This document shows, piece by piece, positions 1 to 52,174 of a stretch of 64,000 nucleotides of DNA. Origin of the DNA: Alphaproteobacteria bacterium (lineage in GTDB: Bacteria; Pseudomonadota; Alphaproteobacteria; SHVV01); the NCBI GenBank assembly GCA_965261735.1, contig OZ253470.1, positions 4,967,632 to 5,031,631 on the forward strand, in the 5' to 3' direction. Numbering within the stretch: the first letter of the stretch is position 1; each line of letters begins with the position of its first letter. The notes beneath the pieces are model-generated. The model made no database searches. It saw nothing but the letters and a program-made list of their open reading frames with translations, and had not been told where the DNA came from. The position numbers and the translations under genes are program-made.

Positions 1-347
1 ATCGCGAGATACGCACCGCTCAACCCGCGGCCCCAGAAGAGGGCCATGCCGAGCAGCGCGCCGAATAGGGCCGCAACGGCGATCGCCGAAGCGAGGCCCA
101 CGTAGCTCGAGACGCTGATCCCGAGCAGGCCCATGGTCAGCGCCGCCATGACGTAGCCGCCGAGACCGAAAAAGATGGCCTGGCCGAAGCACAGGATGCC
201 GCCGCGGCCCCACACGAGCGAAAGCGACATGGCGAACAGCCCCAAGATCACGTAACGGGCCGCCTGATCGGTCCAGTACTCGGCCGCGAATACCGGAACG
301 ACCGCGAGCACCACGAAGACGCTGAGGGCGAGGCCTCTAGGCGCCAT
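1..347 (-). CDS. Branched-chain amino acid/urea-type ABC permease (UrtC/LivM-like), runs off the window edge
   Basis: Manual translation from ATG at 347: MAPRGLALSVFVVLAVVPVFAAEYWTDQAARYVILGLFAMSLSLVWGRGGILCFGQAIFFGLGGY; overlaps the stop of the upstream permease. Confidence 0.85.
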   Translation of the reverse strand, partial: MAPRGLALSVFVVLAVVPVFAAEYWTDQAARYVILGLFAMSLSLVWGRGGILCFGQAIFFGLGGYVMAALTMGLLGISVSSYVGLASAIAVAALFGALLGMALFWGRGLSGAYLA

Positions 348-1205: not shown

Positions 1206-1909
<704 letters not shown>

Positions 1910-1910
<1 letters not shown>

Positions 1911-2638
1911 CAACCGTGGCGCCCGAAATAGAGCTCGCGGACGGCCGGGTCGGCGCGGATCTCCGCGTAACTTCCGGAGCGCAGGAGCCTCCCGCTCGCC
2001 ATCACCGTGACGGGACACGCGAGCTGCCGGATGAATCCCATGTCGTGCTCGATGACGAGAATGCTGGCCCCAAAGTCGGCGACGAGGCGCAGTACCAGGT
2101 CGGCGGTGGCCGAAGTCTCGGGCATGGTCATGCCCGCGGTCGGCTCGTCGAGCAGCAGCAGGCGCGCGTCGCCGGCGAGCAGCATGCCGATTTCCAGCCA
2201 TTGGCGTTCGCCGTGCGACAGTGCGCCGGCCGCGACCGCACCCCTGCCGGCAAGGCCGACGCTGGCCGCGACCTCGTCCGCCTCGTGGGTGCGCACACCG
2301 GCCCATAGCGGAAGCGCACGGCCGGCCCAGCGCGGCACCATGAGATTCTGCGCCACCGTCAGTTCGTCGAACACGGCGGGCACCTGGAACTTGCGCCCAA
2401 TACCGCGGCGCGCAACGGCGTGGGGGGCGAGGTCGGTGATGTCCTCGCCGTCGAAGACCACGCTCCCGGCACTCGGCGCCAGGGCACCGGTGATCAGGTT
2501 GAAAAGAGTCGACTTGCCGCAGCCGTTGGGCCCGACGAGCGCGTGCAGAGCGCCGCGCTCGAGGCGCAGGCTGAAGCGATCGACCGCGGCGAGGCCACCG
2601 AAGTCCTTGCACAACGCATCGAGTTCGAGAAACGCCAT
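1910..2638 (-). CDS. ABC ATPase (UrtD/LivG-like)
   Basis: Walker A GPNGCGKS, LSHGERQWLEIGM, LLLDEPTAGM. Confidence 0.9.
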
Positions 2639-2783
2639 CTGCCCCCAGCGCCGGCGAATCACCGCCCCGGGGATTCATCATTCCCGAAATCCGGCGTGCG
2701 GCAAAATGCTTTCGCCTTGACGCGTGCGCTCATCGGCGCTTCAACATAGCAACCCCGTTCAGGCCCTCTTACGGAAAGCGCAC

Positions 2784-3980
2784 ATGACCAAGTTGGATCG
2801 CCGCCAATTCATCGCAACCGCGGCCGCAGCCGGGACCGCGGCCGGCGCTTCGGTTCTCGGGTTTCCGGCCATCGCTCAGGGCGCGCCTGTGAGGGTGGGT
2901 GCGGCCTTGCCGTTTTCGGGGGGGCTCGAGCTATTCGGCGACCAGGCGCGAATCGGTATCGATCTCGCGGTGGCGGAAATCAATGCCAACAGGGGCATCA
3001 TGGGCCGCCCGGTCGAGGTTCTCTACGAGGACATGAAGACCGACCCCAAGACGGCGGCCGAGAAGGCGCGCAAGCTCATCCAACGCGACGGCGTGATCGC
3101 GGTGGCCGGGCCGATCACCTCGTCGGGGCGCAATGCGATGGCGCCGCACATGGCCCGGCTCAAGACGCCCCTGCTCTACGCCACGAACTATGAGGGGGCC
3201 GACGATCAGGGCAGCGGCTGCGGGCGCTACCTGTTCTTCTTCAACACCGTGCCCAACCAGGATACGGCCCCGCTCATCCCTTATCTCGCCAAGGAGGGGA
3301 TCGGCACCTCCTACTACATGTTCGGCGCCAACTACGTGTGGCCGCGCAACATGTTCAAGGCGGCCAAGCAGATCATCAAGACCACCGGCGGTGCGGCCCG
3401 GGCGGAGGAGTTCACCCCCTTCGGCGTCGCCGATTTCACGTCAGTCATTCGCAAGGTCGCGGACTCCGGCGCCGACATTCTGCTCTTCGCGCTACCCGGC
3501 GCCGATGGCATCACCTTCATCAAACAGGCCGAGGAGTTCGGCCTGATGAACAAGGTGACGGTGGCCTTCCTCGGTTTCAGCGAGACCTATCTCGGCGCCT
3601 TCGGAGCCGGCAAAGGCGAGAACATGTATGTTTGCGTGCCCTTCGTCGCCGCCAGCCCCGAACCCGAGGTCGCGGACTTCGTCGCTCGGGTACGGCACAT
3701 GCGCGGGCCCGACACGGGCGTTTCGCACTATGTCATGACCCACTACAACGCGATCATGGCGCTCAAGGCGGGGCTCGAGAGGCAAGGGACGATCGGGCGC
3801 GAGGAGGCGGTCGACGGCATGGCGGGGCTTAACTTTCGGATTCCGACGGGGCGCGCGCGCCTTACCGCCGGCGACCACCACACGGCCATGAACATGTACA
3901 TCGCCAAAACCGAGGGCGGCATGCTCAGGGTGATCGAGCCGCTCGGCACCATCGAGCCTGAATCGGGCTGCCGTATTTGA
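2784..3980 (+). CDS. ABC substrate-binding protein (UrtA/AmiC/LivJ family) with Tat signal
   Basis: MTKLDRRQF twin-arginine leader; GANYVWPR motif typical of urea/amide-binding proteins. Confidence 0.85.
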   Translation: MTKLDRRQFIATAAAAGTAAGASVLGFPAIAQGAPVRVGAALPFSGGLELFGDQARIGIDLAVAEINANRGIMGRPVEVLYEDMKTDPKTAAEKARKLIQRDGVIAVAGPITSSGRNAMAPHMARLKTPLLYATNYEGADDQGSGCGRYLFFFNTVPNQDTAPLIPYLAKEGIGTSYYMFGANYVWPRNMFKAAKQIIKTTGGAARAEEFTPFGVADFTSVIRKVADSGADILLFALPGADGITFIKQAEEFGLMNKVTVAFLGFSETYLGAFGAGKGENMYVCVPFVAASPEPEVADFVARVRHMRGPDTGVSHYVMTHYNAIMALKAGLERQGTIGREEAVDGMAGLNFRIPTGRARLTAGDHHTAMNMYIAKTEGGMLRVIEPLGTIEPESGCRI

Positions 3981-36827: not shown

Positions 36828-39135
36828 CTTGCCTAACCGGTTAACGCCCATGACCGCTACATGTAGGGTGCCGCCACTCTCCCGAGTAAAGCTCGGCATA
36901 GGTTGGAGCAGAGGTGTCGCCCGCGATGCCGAGCAATGAGCGGAAGGCGTTGAACGGGTAGAACCGCCTGTTGAAGCGGAAGGTGAACTCGTTGAGGTAG
37001 GCTTGTAGGTGCTGGTGGCTAACGCCGTGGTGGATACCGATCAGCCACGTCTTCAGGTTGGCGAAAACCAGATGGATGATCGGCAGGTATTGCTCGGCAA
37101 CCTCTGGATCACCACACTCGGCAACAGCGAAGTGCTCATAGCCGCGCTTACCGAGGCCAGCATAGCCGCTCCAATCGTCAGTAACGATCAGCGATCGCGG
37201 CGCGACGGTGCTCTCGACGAACCCACAGAGCGACTCGGCGCTACGGTCGAGCACGACGGCGAGCCGAACGCGTCCGGCATAGCGTCCGTCTTTCCGGTTG
37301 TCGAGCGATCGTGTCCCGCGGAGTGGTGTAAGAGCGTTGCGCTCTACGCGGCTCCCGGCGGGTAGGGCCGGGACGTTCAGGCTGCCACGGTGGGCAGCGT
37401 GATGGGGACACCATCGCTCAGCGGAGCGATGGATTCCAGCGTCATGTATCTCCTTGAGACGGCCCACTCGTCGTTCTGCTCGAGAAGGATGGCGCCGACG
37501 AGCCGTGTGATGGCGGCTTCGTTGGGAAAGATACCGACGACGTTGGTGCGACGCTTGACCTCGGCATGGAGCCGTTCGATCGGGTTTGTGGAGTGCAATT
37601 TCTGGCGGTGCTCCCTGGGGAAGCTCATGTAGGCGAGGACGTCGTGCTCGGCTTCGTCCATGAGAACTGCCAGCTTGGGCACCTTGGGCCTGAGCTGGTC
37701 GGCGACCTGGCGCCACTGGACCTTCGCGCTGTCGGCGTCCTCCTGGGCGAAGGCGGAGACGACGCGCCGGCCCTGGCGGCCGGCATGGGCCAGCAGGTTG
37801 CGGGCGAAGTGCACGCGGCAGCGCTGCCATGTGGCGCCGAGGATCCGGGTCGCGGCGGCCTTCAGGCCCTTGTGGTCGTCGGAGATCACCAGCTTCACGC
37901 CGCGCAGCCCGCGCCGGGCCAGCGAGCGCAGGAACTCGGTCCAGAAGGTCTCGGCCTCCGACGCGCCGATCGCCACGCCCAGGACCTCGCGGCGGCCTTG
38001 GTCGTTGACGGCCACAGCCACGGTCACCGCGACCGAGACGATGCGTCCGGTCTGGCGCACCTTCACGTAGGTGGCGTCGAGCCACAGATAGGGTCAGTCG
38101 CCCTCCAGCGGTCGATCGAGGAAGCCGGTGACCTTATCGTCGATCTCGCCGCACAGCCTGGAGACCTGGCTCTTGGAGGCGCCCGACATCCCCATCGCCT
38201 GAACCAGATCGTCGACCGAGCGGGTCGACACCCCCTGGATGTAGGCCTCCTGGATCACCGCAGCCAGCGCCTTCTCGGCCATCCGCCGCGGCTCCAGGAA
38301 GCCCGGGAAGTAGCTTCCCTTCCTCAGCTTCGGGATCTTCAGCTCGACCGTGCCGGCCCGCGTCTCCCAGGACCGGTCGCGGTAGCCGTTGCGATGGGTG
38401 ATACGATCCGCCGAGCGCTCGCCGTGCCCGGCGCCGGTCAGGCCCTCAACCTCCAGTGCCATCAGCCGCTCGGCCGTGAAGCCGATCATCTCGCAAAGCA
38501 GATCGGCATCGGAGCTCTTCTCCAAAAGCGCGCGCAGGGTCATCATGTCCTGGGTCATCGTGGTTCTCCTTCGGGTCAGGTTGGTTTGCACTAGCCCAAC
38601 CCTAAACCGGAACCGCGATGGCCTCCGCTGTGGATAGCCGGCTTGCCTACGCCAGACTCTCGGCGGTCGCTACGGCAAGCCGCCTACCCACAGCTACCAG
38701 AGGCTCCAACAACTCCTACACCACGTCCTGGGACACGACCTGTCGAGCTTGGTGCCCGGCTTTCGATGACGCACCTCGATGGCACAGGAGACGGGAACCT
38801 TGTGGTGAACACCACGGCCTTCCCCACGCGTTCGCCCGCCAACCCAGGTTTCGTCCACCTCAACATGGTTCTTGGGCTGTCCACCGATCCTGTCTTGGTT
38901 GGGCCGCACCATGCCCGAGCGGAGCTTGTGGAGAATTTGAAAGGCCGTCTCCCCAGCGGGCTTTCTCCAGGTAGGCGGCGCAGGCCGCATCATCGGGGAA
39001 AAGTCGCTGGAACTCGGGTAGCGAATGCGGGAATGGGAGATCGGCGCGGTCGAGAACATCCATGGCGCGCTCCCCTATATCCGGTTTGCGCCCACTCTAG
39101 CCCTAGTGGGTATGGGTGTAAACCGGATAGGCAAG
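36828..39135 (-). mobile_element. IS1595 copy D (same 239-bp deletion as copy A), interrupted by IS256
   Basis: TIRs at both ends; 8-bp TSD GACTGAGG at 36820-36827 and 39136-39143. Confidence 0.95.
37307..38740 (-). mobile_element. IS256-family element (type b), transposase inactivated by a nonsense codon at 38094-38096
   Basis: TIRs gatcgtgtcccgcggagtggtgtaagag / ggtcgtgtcccaggacgtggtgtaggag; TSD TGTCGAGC at 37299-37306 and 38741-38748; GD*PYLWLDATY. Confidence 0.93.
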
Positions 39136-50551: not shown

Positions 50552-50938
50552 CTAAGCGGCCGCGACCAGCTCCACCTCCAGCAACAGCGCGGGCCGAGCC
50601 AGGCCGGCGACGACGAGCATTGTCGCCGGCGGCCGCGCCTCCGCCACGTACTTGGCGAGAACCTCGCGGTACGCCGGGAGGTTGTCGGCGCTGGTGATGA
50701 AATGGTTGATCTTGACGACGTCGGCCATCGTCATCCCGTTGTGCTCGAGAATCGTCGTGAGATTATTCCAGACGTTCTCCGCCTGGGTGCGGAAGTCGGC
50801 CGGGATTTCGTTGTCCAGCCCGACCCCCACCTGCCCGGCCGTGTACAGGATGCGGGCGTCCGGGGGCAGCGCGGCGCCGTGCGTGTAATTGCCGAGCGGC
50901 GGCGCCATGTCATCGGGGTTCGAAAATTCGTTCGTCAC
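50552..50938 (-). CDS. Rid (YjgF/YER057c/UK114) family protein lacking the catalytic Arg
   Basis: YTAGQVG, DVVKI, PPATML..GLARPALLLEVE. Confidence 0.88.
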   Translation of the reverse strand: MTNEFSNPDDMAPPLGNYTHGAALPPDARILYTAGQVGVGLDNEIPADFRTQAENVWNNLTTILEHNGMTMADVVKINHFITSADNLPAYREVLAKYVAEARPPATMLVVAGLARPALLLEVELVAAA

Positions 50939-50971
50939 CGCTTTCTCCCTTGGAATCCGTAGCCCGCCGCC

Positions 50972-51361
50972 TCAGGAAGCGGCCGCGATCATCTCCACCT
51001 CGAGTAGGAATTCGGGGCGCGCAAGGCCGCCGACGAGGAGGAGCGTCGATGCCGGGTAGGGCTTGATGAGATGGCCCGAAAACACCTCGAGATAGGCCGG
51101 AATATCCTCCGGCCGCGTCAGAAAGTGCGTGACCTTCACGATATCGGCCGCGCCCATCCCGTTGTCCGCGAGGATGCTCATCAGGTTTCGCCAGGTGTTC
51201 TCCGCCTGACCCTTGAAGTCGTCCGGCAAGGAGCCGTCGGGCGCCACGCCGACTTGTCCGGCCGTGTGAACGATGCGCGAGCCGGGCGCGATTTCGGCGC
51301 CGTGCGAAAAAGTGGCGCCCGGCGCACGCATGTTGGGGGGATTGAAGATCCGGTTGGCCAT
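50972..51361 (-). CDS. Rid family protein lacking the catalytic Arg (tandem paralog)
   Basis: HTAGQVG, DIVKV, YPASTL..GLARPEFLLEVE. Confidence 0.88.
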   Translation of the reverse strand: MANRIFNPPNMRAPGATFSHGAEIAPGSRIVHTAGQVGVAPDGSLPDDFKGQAENTWRNLMSILADNGMGAADIVKVTHFLTRPEDIPAYLEVFSGHLIKPYPASTLLLVGGLARPEFLLEVEMIAAAS

Positions 51362-51364
51362 GAT

Positions 51365-52174
51365 TCAGCCGCCAGTCCTTGGCTCGCCTGGCTTGCGGGC
51401 AAGAAACGCGTGTCCGTACACCTCGAATTGCCGGGCCTTGGCCTCGCCGCCGGCTCCACCGAAAGTATCGACCGGGGGGCCCACGCGAACGTCGACGAAA
51501 CCCATCTCCTCAAGCATTTTTTGCCAGCCCGCGCACGGCAGGCCGCCGGCGATTCAGGCGGTCCACAGGTCGATGTCGCGGAGCGCGGACTCCGGGATCG
51601 GTCGGTCGTTGGCGATATCGGCGAACTGGAGGCGGCCGCCGGGACGCAGCACCCGCGAGATCTCGGAGAAGGCGCGCCGCTTGTCGGCACACAGATTGAT
51701 GACGCCGTTGCTGATCACGACGTCAGCGGATCCATCGGCCACGGGTAAATCCTCCGCCAATCCCTCCCTGAATTCGACCTGCTCGTACCCGAACTCGCTC
51801 GCCGTCGCCCGCGACTTGGCGAGCATCTCCTCGGTCATGTCGACGCCGACCACTCTACCTTGGGTGCCAACCTGAATCGCCGCGATGAAGGTGTCGAAGC
51901 CCGCGCCCGACCCAACGTCGACCACGCTTTCACCCCGATCCAGCGCGCCCAGCGAGAACGGATTGCCGACGCCAGCGAACGATTCCACCGCCGCATCGGG
52001 CAGGCGCGCCACCGCTTCGGCATCGTACCCGAGGCGGGCGGCCAGCGGTCGTCCGGTATGGAAATGGTAGGTCGCCTGCCGCTCGAGCGCGACTTCTCGA
52101 TATTTGGCCTTGACCTGTTCGCGCAGGATCCGGGGATCGACCGTGATCTCGGCGTGATCATCAATTTCGGCCAT
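51365..52174 (-). CDS. ArsM-like SAM-dependent methyltransferase, probable selenoprotein (UGA at 51554-51556, 269 aa on readthrough)
   Basis: VDVGSGAGFD, GVDMT, ISNGVINL, RVLRPGG; LWTA-UGA-IAGG aligns with the ArsM-type W..CIAGAL motif; the frame stays open 62 more codons and ends 3 nt before the next ATG. Confidence 0.85.
51522..51540 (-). promoter_or_regulatory. Candidate bacterial SECIS hairpin
   Basis: 13 nt after the UGA: UGCCG-U-GC-GCGG-GC-UGGCA (stem, bulged U, G-first apical loop). Confidence 0.55.

What the first reader, a model, noticed from the sequence alone, without database searches (positions are those of the whole stretch)
51365..52174. Hidden selenoprotein: ArsM-like methyltransferase with UGA at the catalytic Cys position and a SECIS-like hairpin
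Seen: the ORF track stops at 51554 (LWTA*), but the frame continues IAGGLPCAGWQKMLEEMGFVDV...FLARKP for 62 more codons to a stop 3 nt before the next gene. A hairpin with a bulged U and a G-first loop starts 13 nt after the UGA. Known: arsenite methyltransferases (ArsM/AS3MT) carry a catalytic Cys in a W-x-x-C-I-A-G-A-L motif followed by L..aGF.dv, and bacterial SECIS elements lie immediately 3' of the UGA. Also seen: the N-terminal ArsM 'GCGNP' Cys is replaced (FAGVGNP), and a further Cys lies 7 residues after the UGA. Inference: a Sec enzyme with a different thiol set from canonical ArsM, so possibly a different metalloid or organometallic substrate. Sec-containing relatives may already be catalogued; I cannot check that.
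Basis: partly seen in the sequence, partly recalled or inferred. Interest (0 to 1): 0.85.

Follow-up and report, generated by a model that had tools for sequence, protein, structure and literature searches.

The report
Selenocysteine ArsM-like methyltransferase, mis-annotated as truncated
This gene almost certainly encodes a selenocysteine-containing relative of arsenic methyltransferases that gene callers cut short at its UGA codon; such selenoproteins are already catalogued, so it is a well-supported new member rather than a new kind.

Summary
The minus-strand gene 52174..51365 has an in-frame TGA (51556..51554, codon 207) and stays open for 62 more codons. That column is Cys in 115 of 119 full-length homologs and aligns with As(III)-binding Cys224 of CmArsM. 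At least 119 other species genomes carry the same TGA with a conserved 55-56-codon tail. The genome has selA, selB, selD and tRNA-Sec, plus a second Sec candidate (a BCP-type peroxiredoxin).

A SECIS-like hairpin is supported only by comparison: stem +12..+19 / +25..+32, loop +20..+24.

The protein is ArsM-like but not a canonical ArsM:
- It scores below every NCBIfam cut-off.
- It lacks the Cys72 and Cys174 equivalents and the ArsM C-terminal domain.
- It has no ars neighbours.
- Its Sec clade keeps another Cys (Cys162) in 102 of 104 members.

Sec-containing "arsenite methyltransferase (UxxG)" is already listed in selenoprotein catalogues. Verdict: a real selenoprotein and a new member of a known kind. 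The substrate is unknown. Interest is moderate to low (0.35).

The parts
51365..52174 (-). Whole gene: 269-residue ArsM-like class I SAM methyltransferase with Sec at residue 207. ATG at 52174..52172, terminal TGA at 51367..51365.
   Evidence: frame; Methyltransf_31/11/25; best NCBIfam hits are ArsM families, all below cut-off; closest solved structures are ArsM/AS3MT; AF2 mean pLDDT 86.8.
51554..51556 (-). UGA codon 207, read as selenocysteine (inferred).
   Evidence: Cys in 115 of 119 homologs. Aligns with CmArsM Cys224. The same TGA is found in 119 other genome stretches with a conserved downstream frame. No variant in contigs of 4 runs.
51525..51545 (-). SECIS-like hairpin: stem +12..+19 with +25..+32 (U of UGA = +1), apical loop +20..+24 = 51537..51533 (CGUGC).
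   Evidence: It is the MFE of +4..+45. 91.1% of cells paired over 114 Sec forms, 0 of 500 shuffles as high. Absent from Cys forms. Odd codon choices at its synonymous sites. Not above chance in the window alone.
51368..51553 (-). 62 codons after the UGA that are missing from the annotated 206-aa product. They hold helix 214-223, strand 227-231, helix 244-249 and strand 252-260 of the model.
   Evidence: Conserved in 117 of 120 stretches, the other 3 being cut by contig ends. pLDDT blocks 90/98/90/82/93 for residues 211-260. The PDB alignment runs to residue 232.
51689..51691 (-). Cys162 codon (TGT), in 'INLCADK'. A candidate second ligand or redox partner of Sec207 (inferred).
   Evidence: Cys in 102 of 104 Sec forms. 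In the other listed homologs outside the Sec clade it is Val 69, Cys 36. Aligns with Ser179 of CmArsM.
51704..51706 (-). Gly157 codon, in the place of the canonical As-binding Cys174 of CmArsM ('VISNGV' against 'VISNCV').
   Evidence: Gly in 119 of 119 homologs.
51968..51970 (-). Val69 codon, in the place of the canonical Cys72 of CmArsM ('FAGVGNP' against 'FYGCGST').
   Evidence: Val in 119 of 119 homologs.
51899..51925 (-). SAM-binding glycine-rich motif (VVDVGSGAG, residues 84-92). The motif name is recalled.
   Evidence: Lies inside the Pfam Methyltransf_25/11 matches. G88, G90 and G92 are invariant.
51533..51535 (-). Cys214 codon (TGC), which forms +22..+24 of the hairpin loop.
   Evidence: C 69, R 34, G 1 of 104 Sec forms. 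+23 is G in 114 of 114. Arg here is CGT in 94%, against 12% elsewhere in the same genes.

Best explanation
The gene 52174..51365 (minus strand) encodes one 269-residue selenoprotein, not the 206-residue product on record.

Recoding: UGA 207 is recoded to selenocysteine by the genome's own SelA/SelB/SelD/tRNA-Sec system. The signal is a hairpin that starts 8 nt after the UGA and presents a loop at +20..+24.

The enzyme: it is a class I SAM-dependent methyltransferase of the ArsM/AS3MT lineage. Sec207 sits in the substrate-site column that holds As(III)-binding Cys224 in CmArsM.

Shown here: the recoding signature, the homology and the residue correspondences.

Inferred: the selenolate of Sec207, probably with Cys162, binds a soft metalloid or organometalloid substrate and holds it for methyl transfer from SAM. 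Only one, or with Cys162 two, of the usual three ligand positions exists. The substrate is therefore more likely one that needs one or two ligands than free arsenite. This last step is a guess.
For: In-frame TGA and open tail:
- The frame continues for 62 codons after the TGA.
- The column is Cys in 115 of 119 listed homologs.
By phylum: Actinomycetota 65, Pseudomonadota 49, Binatota 1, Myxococcota 1, unplaced 3.
- With the window that makes 120 stretches, of which 117 have a conserved tail. The other 3 are cut by contig ends.
- The terminal stops of these genes are TGA 79, TAG 21, TAA 17. TGA is thus the ordinary stop in these organisms.

Sec machinery:
- selA 555 bits, selB 404 bits and selD 298 bits, all over their cut-offs, plus tRNA-Sec.
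- selA is over cut-off in 5 of 5 other Sec-form genomes sampled.
- A second gene in the genome has TGA at the peroxidatic Cys of an AhpC/TSA protein (TPG-U). Its downstream hairpin loop also begins CGUG.

Hairpin:
- 6 to 8 of the 8 pairs form in 114 of 114 distinct Sec forms, against 2 to 7 in 64 distinct Cys forms, where only 1 of 64 reaches 7.
- Median energy of that structure is -9.9 against -2.1 kcal/mol.
- Codon choices inside it: Ala215 is GCA or GCG in 84 of 84 cases, while GCC plus GCT make 57% of 3110 Ala codons elsewhere in the same genes. Arg214 is CGT 94% against 12%. Gly210 is GGT 56% against 17%.

Fold:
- Residues after the UGA are modelled with high confidence and supply two strands.
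- The best fold matches are ArsM/AS3MT: TMq 0.58-0.66, 24-34% identity.

Sequence integrity: the TGA is unchanged in contigs of 4 runs from 4 studies; one of them may be the source.
Against: - No direct evidence of selenium incorporation or of expression exists.
- In the window alone the hairpin is not more stable than dinucleotide shuffles.
- Covariation is thin once relatedness is counted. The 14 double-changed cells at pair +18/+26 trace to about 2 changes of U18 on the tree, and the independent-pairs test has no power: 3 pairs, p = 1.
- The Sec-against-Cys contrast in hairpin content is between two clades, so it is partly confounded by descent.
- 36 actinobacterial Sec forms fit a shifted hairpin (+18..+21 with +27..+30) better than the main one.
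- Function: no ars genes nearby. The protein is below the NF008823 cut-off, 225.6 against 263. Two of three As-binding Cys columns are lost. Arsenite as substrate is therefore doubtful.
- On the other side, a one-Cys ArsM from Thermus is reported to methylate As(III) (PMC8649762, passages). Loss of the Cys residues therefore does not exclude arsenite as substrate.
Confidence: 0.9

Rival explanations
1. The UGA is a true stop. The gene is a nonsense-mutated pseudogene or yields a 206-residue truncated methyltransferase, and the downstream open frame is a remnant.
For: Public records hold the 206-aa product. TGA is the commonest stop for this gene family. The hairpin in the window is no better than chance.
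Against: The same TGA with an intact, protein-level-conserved tail of 55-56 codons occurs in 117 of 120 stretches from at least four phyla. A remnant would decay. The tail carries two core strands of the fold and 31 positions that are at least 95% conserved.
Confidence: 0.03
2. The UGA is read through without selenium, as Trp, Cys or another residue by near-cognate tRNA or an altered code, so the product is full length but not a selenoprotein.
For: Two database homologs carry W at the column. Three other in-frame TGAs in the genome sit where I would expect Trp in the family consensus (recalled): an IS256-type transposase in 3 copies, a dienelactone-hydrolase-like ORF and a Sel1-repeat ORF.
Against: The column is Cys, the usual counterpart of Sec, in 115 of 119 homologs. 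The two W proteins come from metagenome gene calls and nest inside the Sec clade. The genome and 5 of 5 sampled others carry selA. TGA ends 79 of 117 of these very genes, so it is not a sense codon genome-wide. The Sec forms share a hairpin with constrained synonymous sites, which plain read-through would not need.
Confidence: 0.04
3. It is a selenoprotein, and functionally an ordinary arsenite methyltransferase (detoxifying ArsM). Sec207 and Cys162 replace the Cys174/Cys224 pair.
For: The best sequence and fold matches are ArsM/AS3MT. ArsMs that need only two Cys, and a one-Cys ArsM, are reported (title of ref. 31 and passages of PMC8649762). Catalogues name the Sec family 'arsenite methyltransferase'.
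Against: Below the NF008823 cut-off. Cys72 and Cys174 equivalents are lost in 119 of 119 homologs. At 269 aa it lacks the ArsM C-terminal domain; the matched structures have 299-333 residues. There are no ars genes beside it in the window and no conserved ars neighbourhood in 119 loci.
Confidence: 0.3

Closest known systems
Sec-containing 'arsenite (S-adenosyl)methyltransferase' selenoprotein family (NF008823/PRK11873, motif UxxG), as listed in PMC13188914 and PMC9312934 (table passages), PMC2398784 (passage) and PMC5029168 (table row with counts 39 and 41; headings not seen)
   Same: ArsM-type SAM methyltransferase with a single Sec in a U-x-x-G motif. Here it is U-I-A-G, the only such motif in the protein. 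It is a bacterial gene with a SECIS directly after the UGA.
   Different: This protein scores 225.6 bits against the family cut-off of 263. It lacks the Cys72 and Cys174 equivalents and the C-terminal domain. I could not see the catalogue's representative sequence or the supplements. Whether the catalogued members include this short clade is therefore unknown.
CmArsM / CrArsM / human AS3MT (solved structures 4fr0, 4fs8, 6cx6, 5evj, 8xt7)
   Same: Same fold core: Foldseek E 1e-18 to 1e-16, TMq 0.58-0.66. Sequence E about 3e-28. Sec207 is in the Cys224 column.
   Different: V69 replaces Cys72 and G157 replaces Cys174. There is no N-terminal Cys at all. The protein is about 60-110 residues shorter and is 24-34% identical.
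NCBIfam fused selenoproteins: NF041537 (ArsM/AhpD, 3 Sec), NF041536 (ArsM/DUF2284, 2 Sec), NF047649 (methyltransferase/UXPK-star, 2 Sec)
   Same: The methyltransferase part matches over residues 13-231 with 199-227 bits. All are listed with a UxxG Sec.
   Different: Scores are far below the cut-offs of 460-575. There is no second domain. No conserved extension or second Sec follows the terminal TGA in 79 TGA-terminated relatives.
Escherichia coli fdhF-type bacterial SECIS (recalled, not from a call)
   Same: A hairpin just 3' of the UGA with G23 and U24 (counted from the U of UGA) exposed in the apical loop. Here G23 is invariant in 114 of 114 and position 24 is U in 78 of 114.
   Different: There is no bulged U in the supported register. 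The loop is CGUGY (79 of 114) or, in the shifted actinobacterial form, CGUGC. No Rfam family matches.
TtArsM of Thermus thermophilus (PMC8649762, passages seen)
   Same: An arsenite methyltransferase reported to work with only one conserved Cys. This is a precedent that a reduced thiol set can still methylate As(III).
   Different: The authors describe it as evolutionarily distant from other ArsMs, with His residues proposed as ligands. It has no Sec. It was not compared by sequence here.

Membership tests
Bacterial selenoprotein gene (Sec-decoded UGA) | In-frame UGA aligned with Cys in homologs | tested here: met
   Cys in 115 of 119. Aligns with CmArsM Cys224.
Bacterial selenoprotein gene (Sec-decoded UGA) | Coding sequence conserved downstream of the UGA across species | tested here: met
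   117 of 120 stretches have a conserved tail of about 55 codons; 3 are cut by contig ends. 31 tail positions are at least 95% conserved.
Bacterial selenoprotein gene (Sec-decoded UGA) | SECIS hairpin directly 3' of the UGA, with the apical loop about 16-37 nt from the UGA and a G early in the loop (criteria recalled) | tested here: met
   Stem +12..19/+25..32, loop +20..24, 16 nt between UGA and loop, G at loop position 2. Specific to Sec forms. Caveats: not above chance in the single sequence; covariation is weak after phylogeny.
Bacterial selenoprotein gene (Sec-decoded UGA) | Genome encodes selA, selB, selD and tRNA-Sec | tested here: met
   All three proteins are over the curated cut-offs. 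tRNA-Sec (anticodon tca) lies beside selD.
Bacterial selenoprotein gene (Sec-decoded UGA) | Selenium found in the protein | not testable with these tools
   Needs 75Se labelling or mass spectrometry.
ArsM/AS3MT arsenite methyltransferase | Score over the curated family cut-off (NF008823) | tested here: not met
   225.6 bits against 263.
ArsM/AS3MT arsenite methyltransferase | As(III)-binding cysteines (CmArsM Cys72, Cys174, Cys224) | tested here: not met
   V69, G157 and U207: one of three is kept, as Sec. V and G are invariant in 119 homologs.
ArsM/AS3MT arsenite methyltransferase | ArsM-like fold of the N-terminal and methyltransferase domains | tested here: met
   The top 13 Foldseek PDB hits are ArsM/AS3MT, TMq 0.57-0.66.
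ArsM/AS3MT arsenite methyltransferase | C-terminal domain beyond the As-binding loop | tested here: not met
   The protein ends at residue 269. The matched structures have 299-333 residues, with TMt only 0.48-0.58.
ArsM/AS3MT arsenite methyltransferase | ars gene neighbourhood (arsR, arsC, acr3 and the like). This is supportive, not strictly defining. | tested here: not met
   Neighbours are valS, two RidA-family genes, ilvD, DUF2497 and an OEP/TolC-like gene. No conserved neighbour in 119 loci apart from an unassigned MFS transporter in about 21.
ArsM/AS3MT arsenite methyltransferase | Methylation of As(III) | not testable with these tools
   Needs an enzyme assay.
NCBIfam fused Sec methyltransferases (NF041537, NF041536, NF047649) | Score over cut-off, and a second domain or second Sec | tested here: not met
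   227/510, 199.5/575 and 208/460 bits. No conserved extension past the terminal TGA.

The most novel reading that the evidence does not exclude
The short Sec clade is not an arsenite methyltransferase at all. It is marked by Sec207 plus Cys162, no canonical ArsM cysteines, no ArsM C-terminal domain and no ars neighbours, and it occurs in at least 119 species of Actinomycetota, Pseudomonadota, Binatota and Myxococcota. On this reading it is a functionally distinct, widespread and largely un-annotated selenoenzyme. Its selenolate/thiol pair would handle another substrate, for example methylated or organic arsenicals that need one or two ligands, antimony, or selenium/tellurium species. Alternatively it acts as a methyl relay through Se-methyl-Sec.
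Probability: 0.3. Interest if true: 0.6.

Novelty: new member of a known kind. Interest (0 to 1): 0.35.

Why it matters
Practically, public records hold this product as a 206-residue fragment, and at least 119 species genomes carry the same hidden UGA. Models that name selenoproteins do not capture this short clade, because every score is below cut-off.

Biologically, this Sec clade has shed the cysteines that define arsenite binding in ArsM but keeps Sec207 and Cys162. It is a clean test case for two questions. One is what Sec contributes in a methyltransferase substrate site. The other is whether 'arsM' counts in environmental surveys include enzymes with another substrate.

The family also gives a large natural set of 114 distinct SECIS sequences that overlap a conserved coding stretch, with two hairpin variants. 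That set could help define SelB recognition outside Escherichia coli.

Tried and rejected
Single-sequence folding did not help. An 81-nt stretch around the UGA gave z = +1.24 and +4..+45 gave z = +0.31, so neither is better than shuffles. The MFE, which pairs the UGA itself, has no comparative support: 86.4% of cells paired, 487 of 500 shuffles as high. A shifted register with a bulged U31 fits only the actinobacterial variant, 75.8% overall.

The Rfam scan of 51350..51700 gave one chance hit, mir-1181 at E = 4.8, and no SECIS family.

The phylogeny-aware covariation test had no power.

I considered the second TGA (51367..51365) as a second Sec, since it is in frame with the RidA gene. I rejected this because no conserved extension follows the terminal TGA in 79 TGA-terminated relatives.

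There is no Sec-type formate dehydrogenase. The TIGR01553 hits have no internal stop and are below cut-off.

My genome-wide scan for other in-frame TGAs by GC3 went from 561 to 73 candidates. It is crude and missed the target gene itself, so it is not a census. It did find the BCP/Prx candidate.

Clustering of neighbours across 119 loci found no conserved operon. An MFS transporter lies near the gene in about 21 loci. It matched only generic MFS models and is not in the window.

Among relatives of the window's genome, only 2 of 40 other genomes matched at E <= 1e-20, and 0 of 7 in the same family.

Expression: no RNA holder was listed.

Literature searches on function gave no characterised member of this short clade. 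This is not a claim that none is in print. I looked up Haft and Tolstoy 2025 by DOI and by PMC id and it is not held. I did not look up Fomenko et al. 2007, which I know only from the reference list. Supplements are closed. Supplementary lists of Sec-ArsM organisms, for example for PMC5029168, may already include this clade.

Full report
WHAT IS THERE.

On the minus strand an ORF starts at ATG 52174 and reaches TGA at 51556..51554 after 206 codons. The same frame stays open for 62 more codons to a second TGA at 51367..51365, three bases before the ATG of the next gene.

The 269-residue read-through product matches Pfam class I methyltransferase domains (Methyltransf_31, E = 2.4e-31). Its best NCBIfam matches are all arsenite-methyltransferase families:
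- NF041537: 227 bits against a cut-off of 510.
- NF008823: 225.6 against 263.
- NF047649: 208 against 460.
- NF041536: 199.5 against 575.

Three of these four are models of selenoproteins. All four scores are below cut-off.

IS THE UGA A SEC CODON?

(a) Homologs. Of 8000 scored candidates, the best 120 were listed. Among the 119 that are not the window's own fragment, the UGA column is C in 115, W in 2, L in 1 and a gap in 1. The two W proteins are metagenome gene calls that nest inside the Sec clade. The L and gap cases have a scrambled local sequence or a truncation.

(b) The same TGA elsewhere. By phylum they are Actinomycetota 65, Pseudomonadota 49, Binatota 1, Myxococcota 1 and unplaced 3. 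With the window that makes 120 stretches. In 117 of them the frame continues for about 55-56 conserved codons, and the other 3 are cut by contig ends. These genes end in TGA 79, TAG 21 and TAA 17 times. TGA is therefore the normal stop in these organisms, and nothing conserved follows the terminal stop.

(c) Machinery. selA (555 bits), selB (404) and selD (298) are over their cut-offs. A tRNA-Sec lies beside selD. selA is over cut-off in 5 of 5 other Sec-form genomes that I sampled.

(d) A second candidate selenoprotein in the same genome. A 150-residue AhpC/TSA protein has TGA at the T-P-G-C peroxidatic position, and the Pfam match spans residues 6-128, across the TGA. There is no Sec-type formate dehydrogenase.

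(e) Sequence integrity. Contigs of four runs from four studies cover the codon with no other letter; one of them may be the window's source.

THE HAIRPIN.

In the window alone nothing exceeds chance. Positions below count from the U of UGA as +1.

Across 114 distinct 63-nt Sec-form sequences (alignment A1), I compared four registers:
- +12..+19 with +25..+32, loop +20..+24: 91.1% of cells paired, 0 of 500 shuffles as high, and far above all slid controls.
- The MFE: 86.4%, 487 of 500.
- A shifted register: 75.8%.

That shifted register is the MFE only for the 36 actinobacterial 'LPR' variants.

As a control I used 64 distinct Cys-form sequences from metagenome contigs (78 usable of 80 stretches). 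They form 2 to 7 of the 8 pairs, and only 1 of 64 reaches 7. All 114 Sec forms form 6 to 8. The median energy of the structure is -9.9 against -2.1 kcal/mol.

Against this support, the 14 compensatory cells at +18/+26 (G-C 93, U-A 14, broken 7) come from about two changes on the tree, and the independent-pairs test has no power. The Sec and Cys forms are also largely separate clades.

The strongest RNA-level evidence is therefore codon choice inside the hairpin, compared with the rest of the same 104 genes:
- Ala215 is GCA or GCG in 84 of 84 cases. GCC plus GCT make 57% of Ala codons elsewhere.
- Arg214 is CGT in 94%, against 12% elsewhere.
- Gly210 is GGT in 56%, against 17%.
- Cys214 is TGT in 58%, against 25%.

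G23 is invariant. Residue 214 is restricted to C, R or G, all with xGx codons, in Sec forms. Among the 119 homologs it is also V, T, L or S.

The peroxiredoxin candidate's hairpin loop also begins CGUG. From recall, G23 and U24 in the loop match the E. coli fdhF SECIS.

WHAT KIND OF ENZYME.

Alignment to CmArsM gives three correspondences:
- V69 aligns with Cys72.
- G157 aligns with Cys174.
- U207 aligns with Cys224.

I counted the numbering from the printed coordinates. It agrees with the PDB titles 'C72A' and 'C224A'. V69 and G157 are invariant in the 119 homologs, so the reduced thiol set is a subfamily trait.

The abstract of PMC3877260 (search listing) states that arsenite binds three Cys, methylarsenite two and dimethylarsenite one.

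In 104 full-length Sec forms the only other conserved Cys is C162 (102 of 104). C214 is C 69, R 34 and G 1. Among the listed homologs outside the Sec clade, position 162 is V 69 and C 36.

The AF2 model has mean pLDDT 86.8 and pTM 0.88. It places helix 214-223, strand 227-231, helix 244-249 and strand 252-260 after the UGA with high confidence. The loop around residue 207 is less confident, with block means of 66 and 64. A 206-residue product would lack these strands.

The top Foldseek PDB hits are ArsM/AS3MT, with TMq 0.58-0.66. The next hits are natural-product methyltransferases.

Neighbours in the window are housekeeping genes and include no ars genes: argS, an HD phosphohydrolase, ilvD, two RidA genes, valS, DUF2497 and a TolC-like gene.

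EVOLUTION.

A FastTree of 278 rows (104 Sec, 174 Cys) needs 7 Sec/Cys changes. One pure Cys clade holds 163 rows, with support 99. The Sec forms make up the rest, with a few nested Cys rows. Of those nested rows, two are the W calls and two are damaged.

A six-member Cys group (L141 and others) keeps the Sec-type 'LPRAGW' sequence and hairpin letters. This looks like a recent Sec-to-Cys change.

The root is not inferred, so the direction of change is not shown.

WHAT IS KNOWN.

Several papers already list this kind of selenoprotein:
- PMC13188914 (table passages) lists 'Arsenite methyltransferase, NF008823, UxxG, 1 Sec' under experimentally verified selenoproteins. It cites Fomenko et al. 2007, which I did not read. 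It also lists the three fused families from Haft and Tolstoy 2025, which is not held.
- PMC9312934 lists the same family.
- PMC2398784 names arsenite S-adenosylmethyltransferase among selenoprotein families.
- PMC5029168 has a table row for it with the counts 39 and 41.

The kind is therefore catalogued. What I could not establish is whether this short clade, with its missing cysteines and conserved Cys162, has been described or annotated. Records hold the window's product as 206 residues.

VERDICT.

This is a genuine selenoprotein gene (about 0.9) and a new member of a known kind. The substrate is unknown, and I put arsenite at about 0.3. Interest is 0.35.

Noticed in passing
G000:C1:2872878-2873330 (minus strand), TGA at 2873193-2873195; locus L222:279-731: A second candidate selenoprotein in the same genome. 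It is a 150-residue AhpC/TSA (BCP-type) peroxiredoxin with TGA at the T-P-G-C peroxidatic position. A downstream hairpin has a loop that begins CGUG. This is a known selenoprotein family (Prx, TxxU).
   Followed up: partly
window 37377..38591 (minus strand), TGA at 38094..38096; also G000:C1 near 166884 and 228176: An IS256-type transposase is interrupted by an in-frame TGA ('...LEGD-TGA-PYLWLDATYVKVR...'). The context is identical in three copies in the genome. From recall of the family consensus, Trp may be expected there. It could be a pseudogene spread in trans or a programmed read-through. I did not test this.
   Followed up: no
G000:C1:1502514-1506431 (L010), ORF 1381..3804 minus in locus coordinates: selD is the C-terminal part of an 807-residue ORF. 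By eye, its N-terminal half looks like a pyridine-nucleotide-disulfide/NADH-dehydrogenase-type oxidoreductase. tRNA-Sec lies next to it. From recall, such SelD fusions have been described. I did not scan it against Pfam here.
   Followed up: no
window 50552..51361 (minus strand): Two tandem RidA/YjgF (Endoribonuclease L-PSP) paralogs lie directly downstream of the methyltransferase gene. The first is in the same frame as the methyltransferase. This appears coincidental, because relatives show no conserved extension.
   Followed up: partly
window 52071, 52080, 52218: Contigs of two runs (X6, X7; two studies) differ from the window at three places. By my reading of the codons, two of them change residues of this protein (T35I and R32P), and R32 is at least 95% conserved in Sec forms. 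The UGA itself is unchanged.
   Followed up: no
loci L141, L163, L167, L186, L190, L211 (metagenome contigs): This Cys-form group nests among the Sec forms. It keeps the Sec-type 'LPRAGW' residues and almost the whole hairpin sequence. It looks like a fossil SECIS left after a Sec-to-Cys change.
   Followed up: partly
about 21 of 119 Sec-form loci, e.g. L038:5422-6744, L073:1471-2907, L034:5505-6872: An unassigned MFS transporter lies within about 4 kb of the Sec methyltransferase gene in many actinobacterial loci, in either orientation. It is not present beside the gene in the window.
   Followed up: partly
G000:C1 near 1763936 (+) and 4269875 (+): Two more in-frame TGAs occur in ORFs that look protein-coding: a dienelactone-hydrolase-like ORF ('GYCFGGYVA-TGA-LAA') and a Sel1-repeat ORF ('EEAAR-TGA-YSASARQG'). 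From recall of the family consensus, Trp would be expected at both positions. They are most simply TGG-to-TGA pseudogenes.
   Followed up: no
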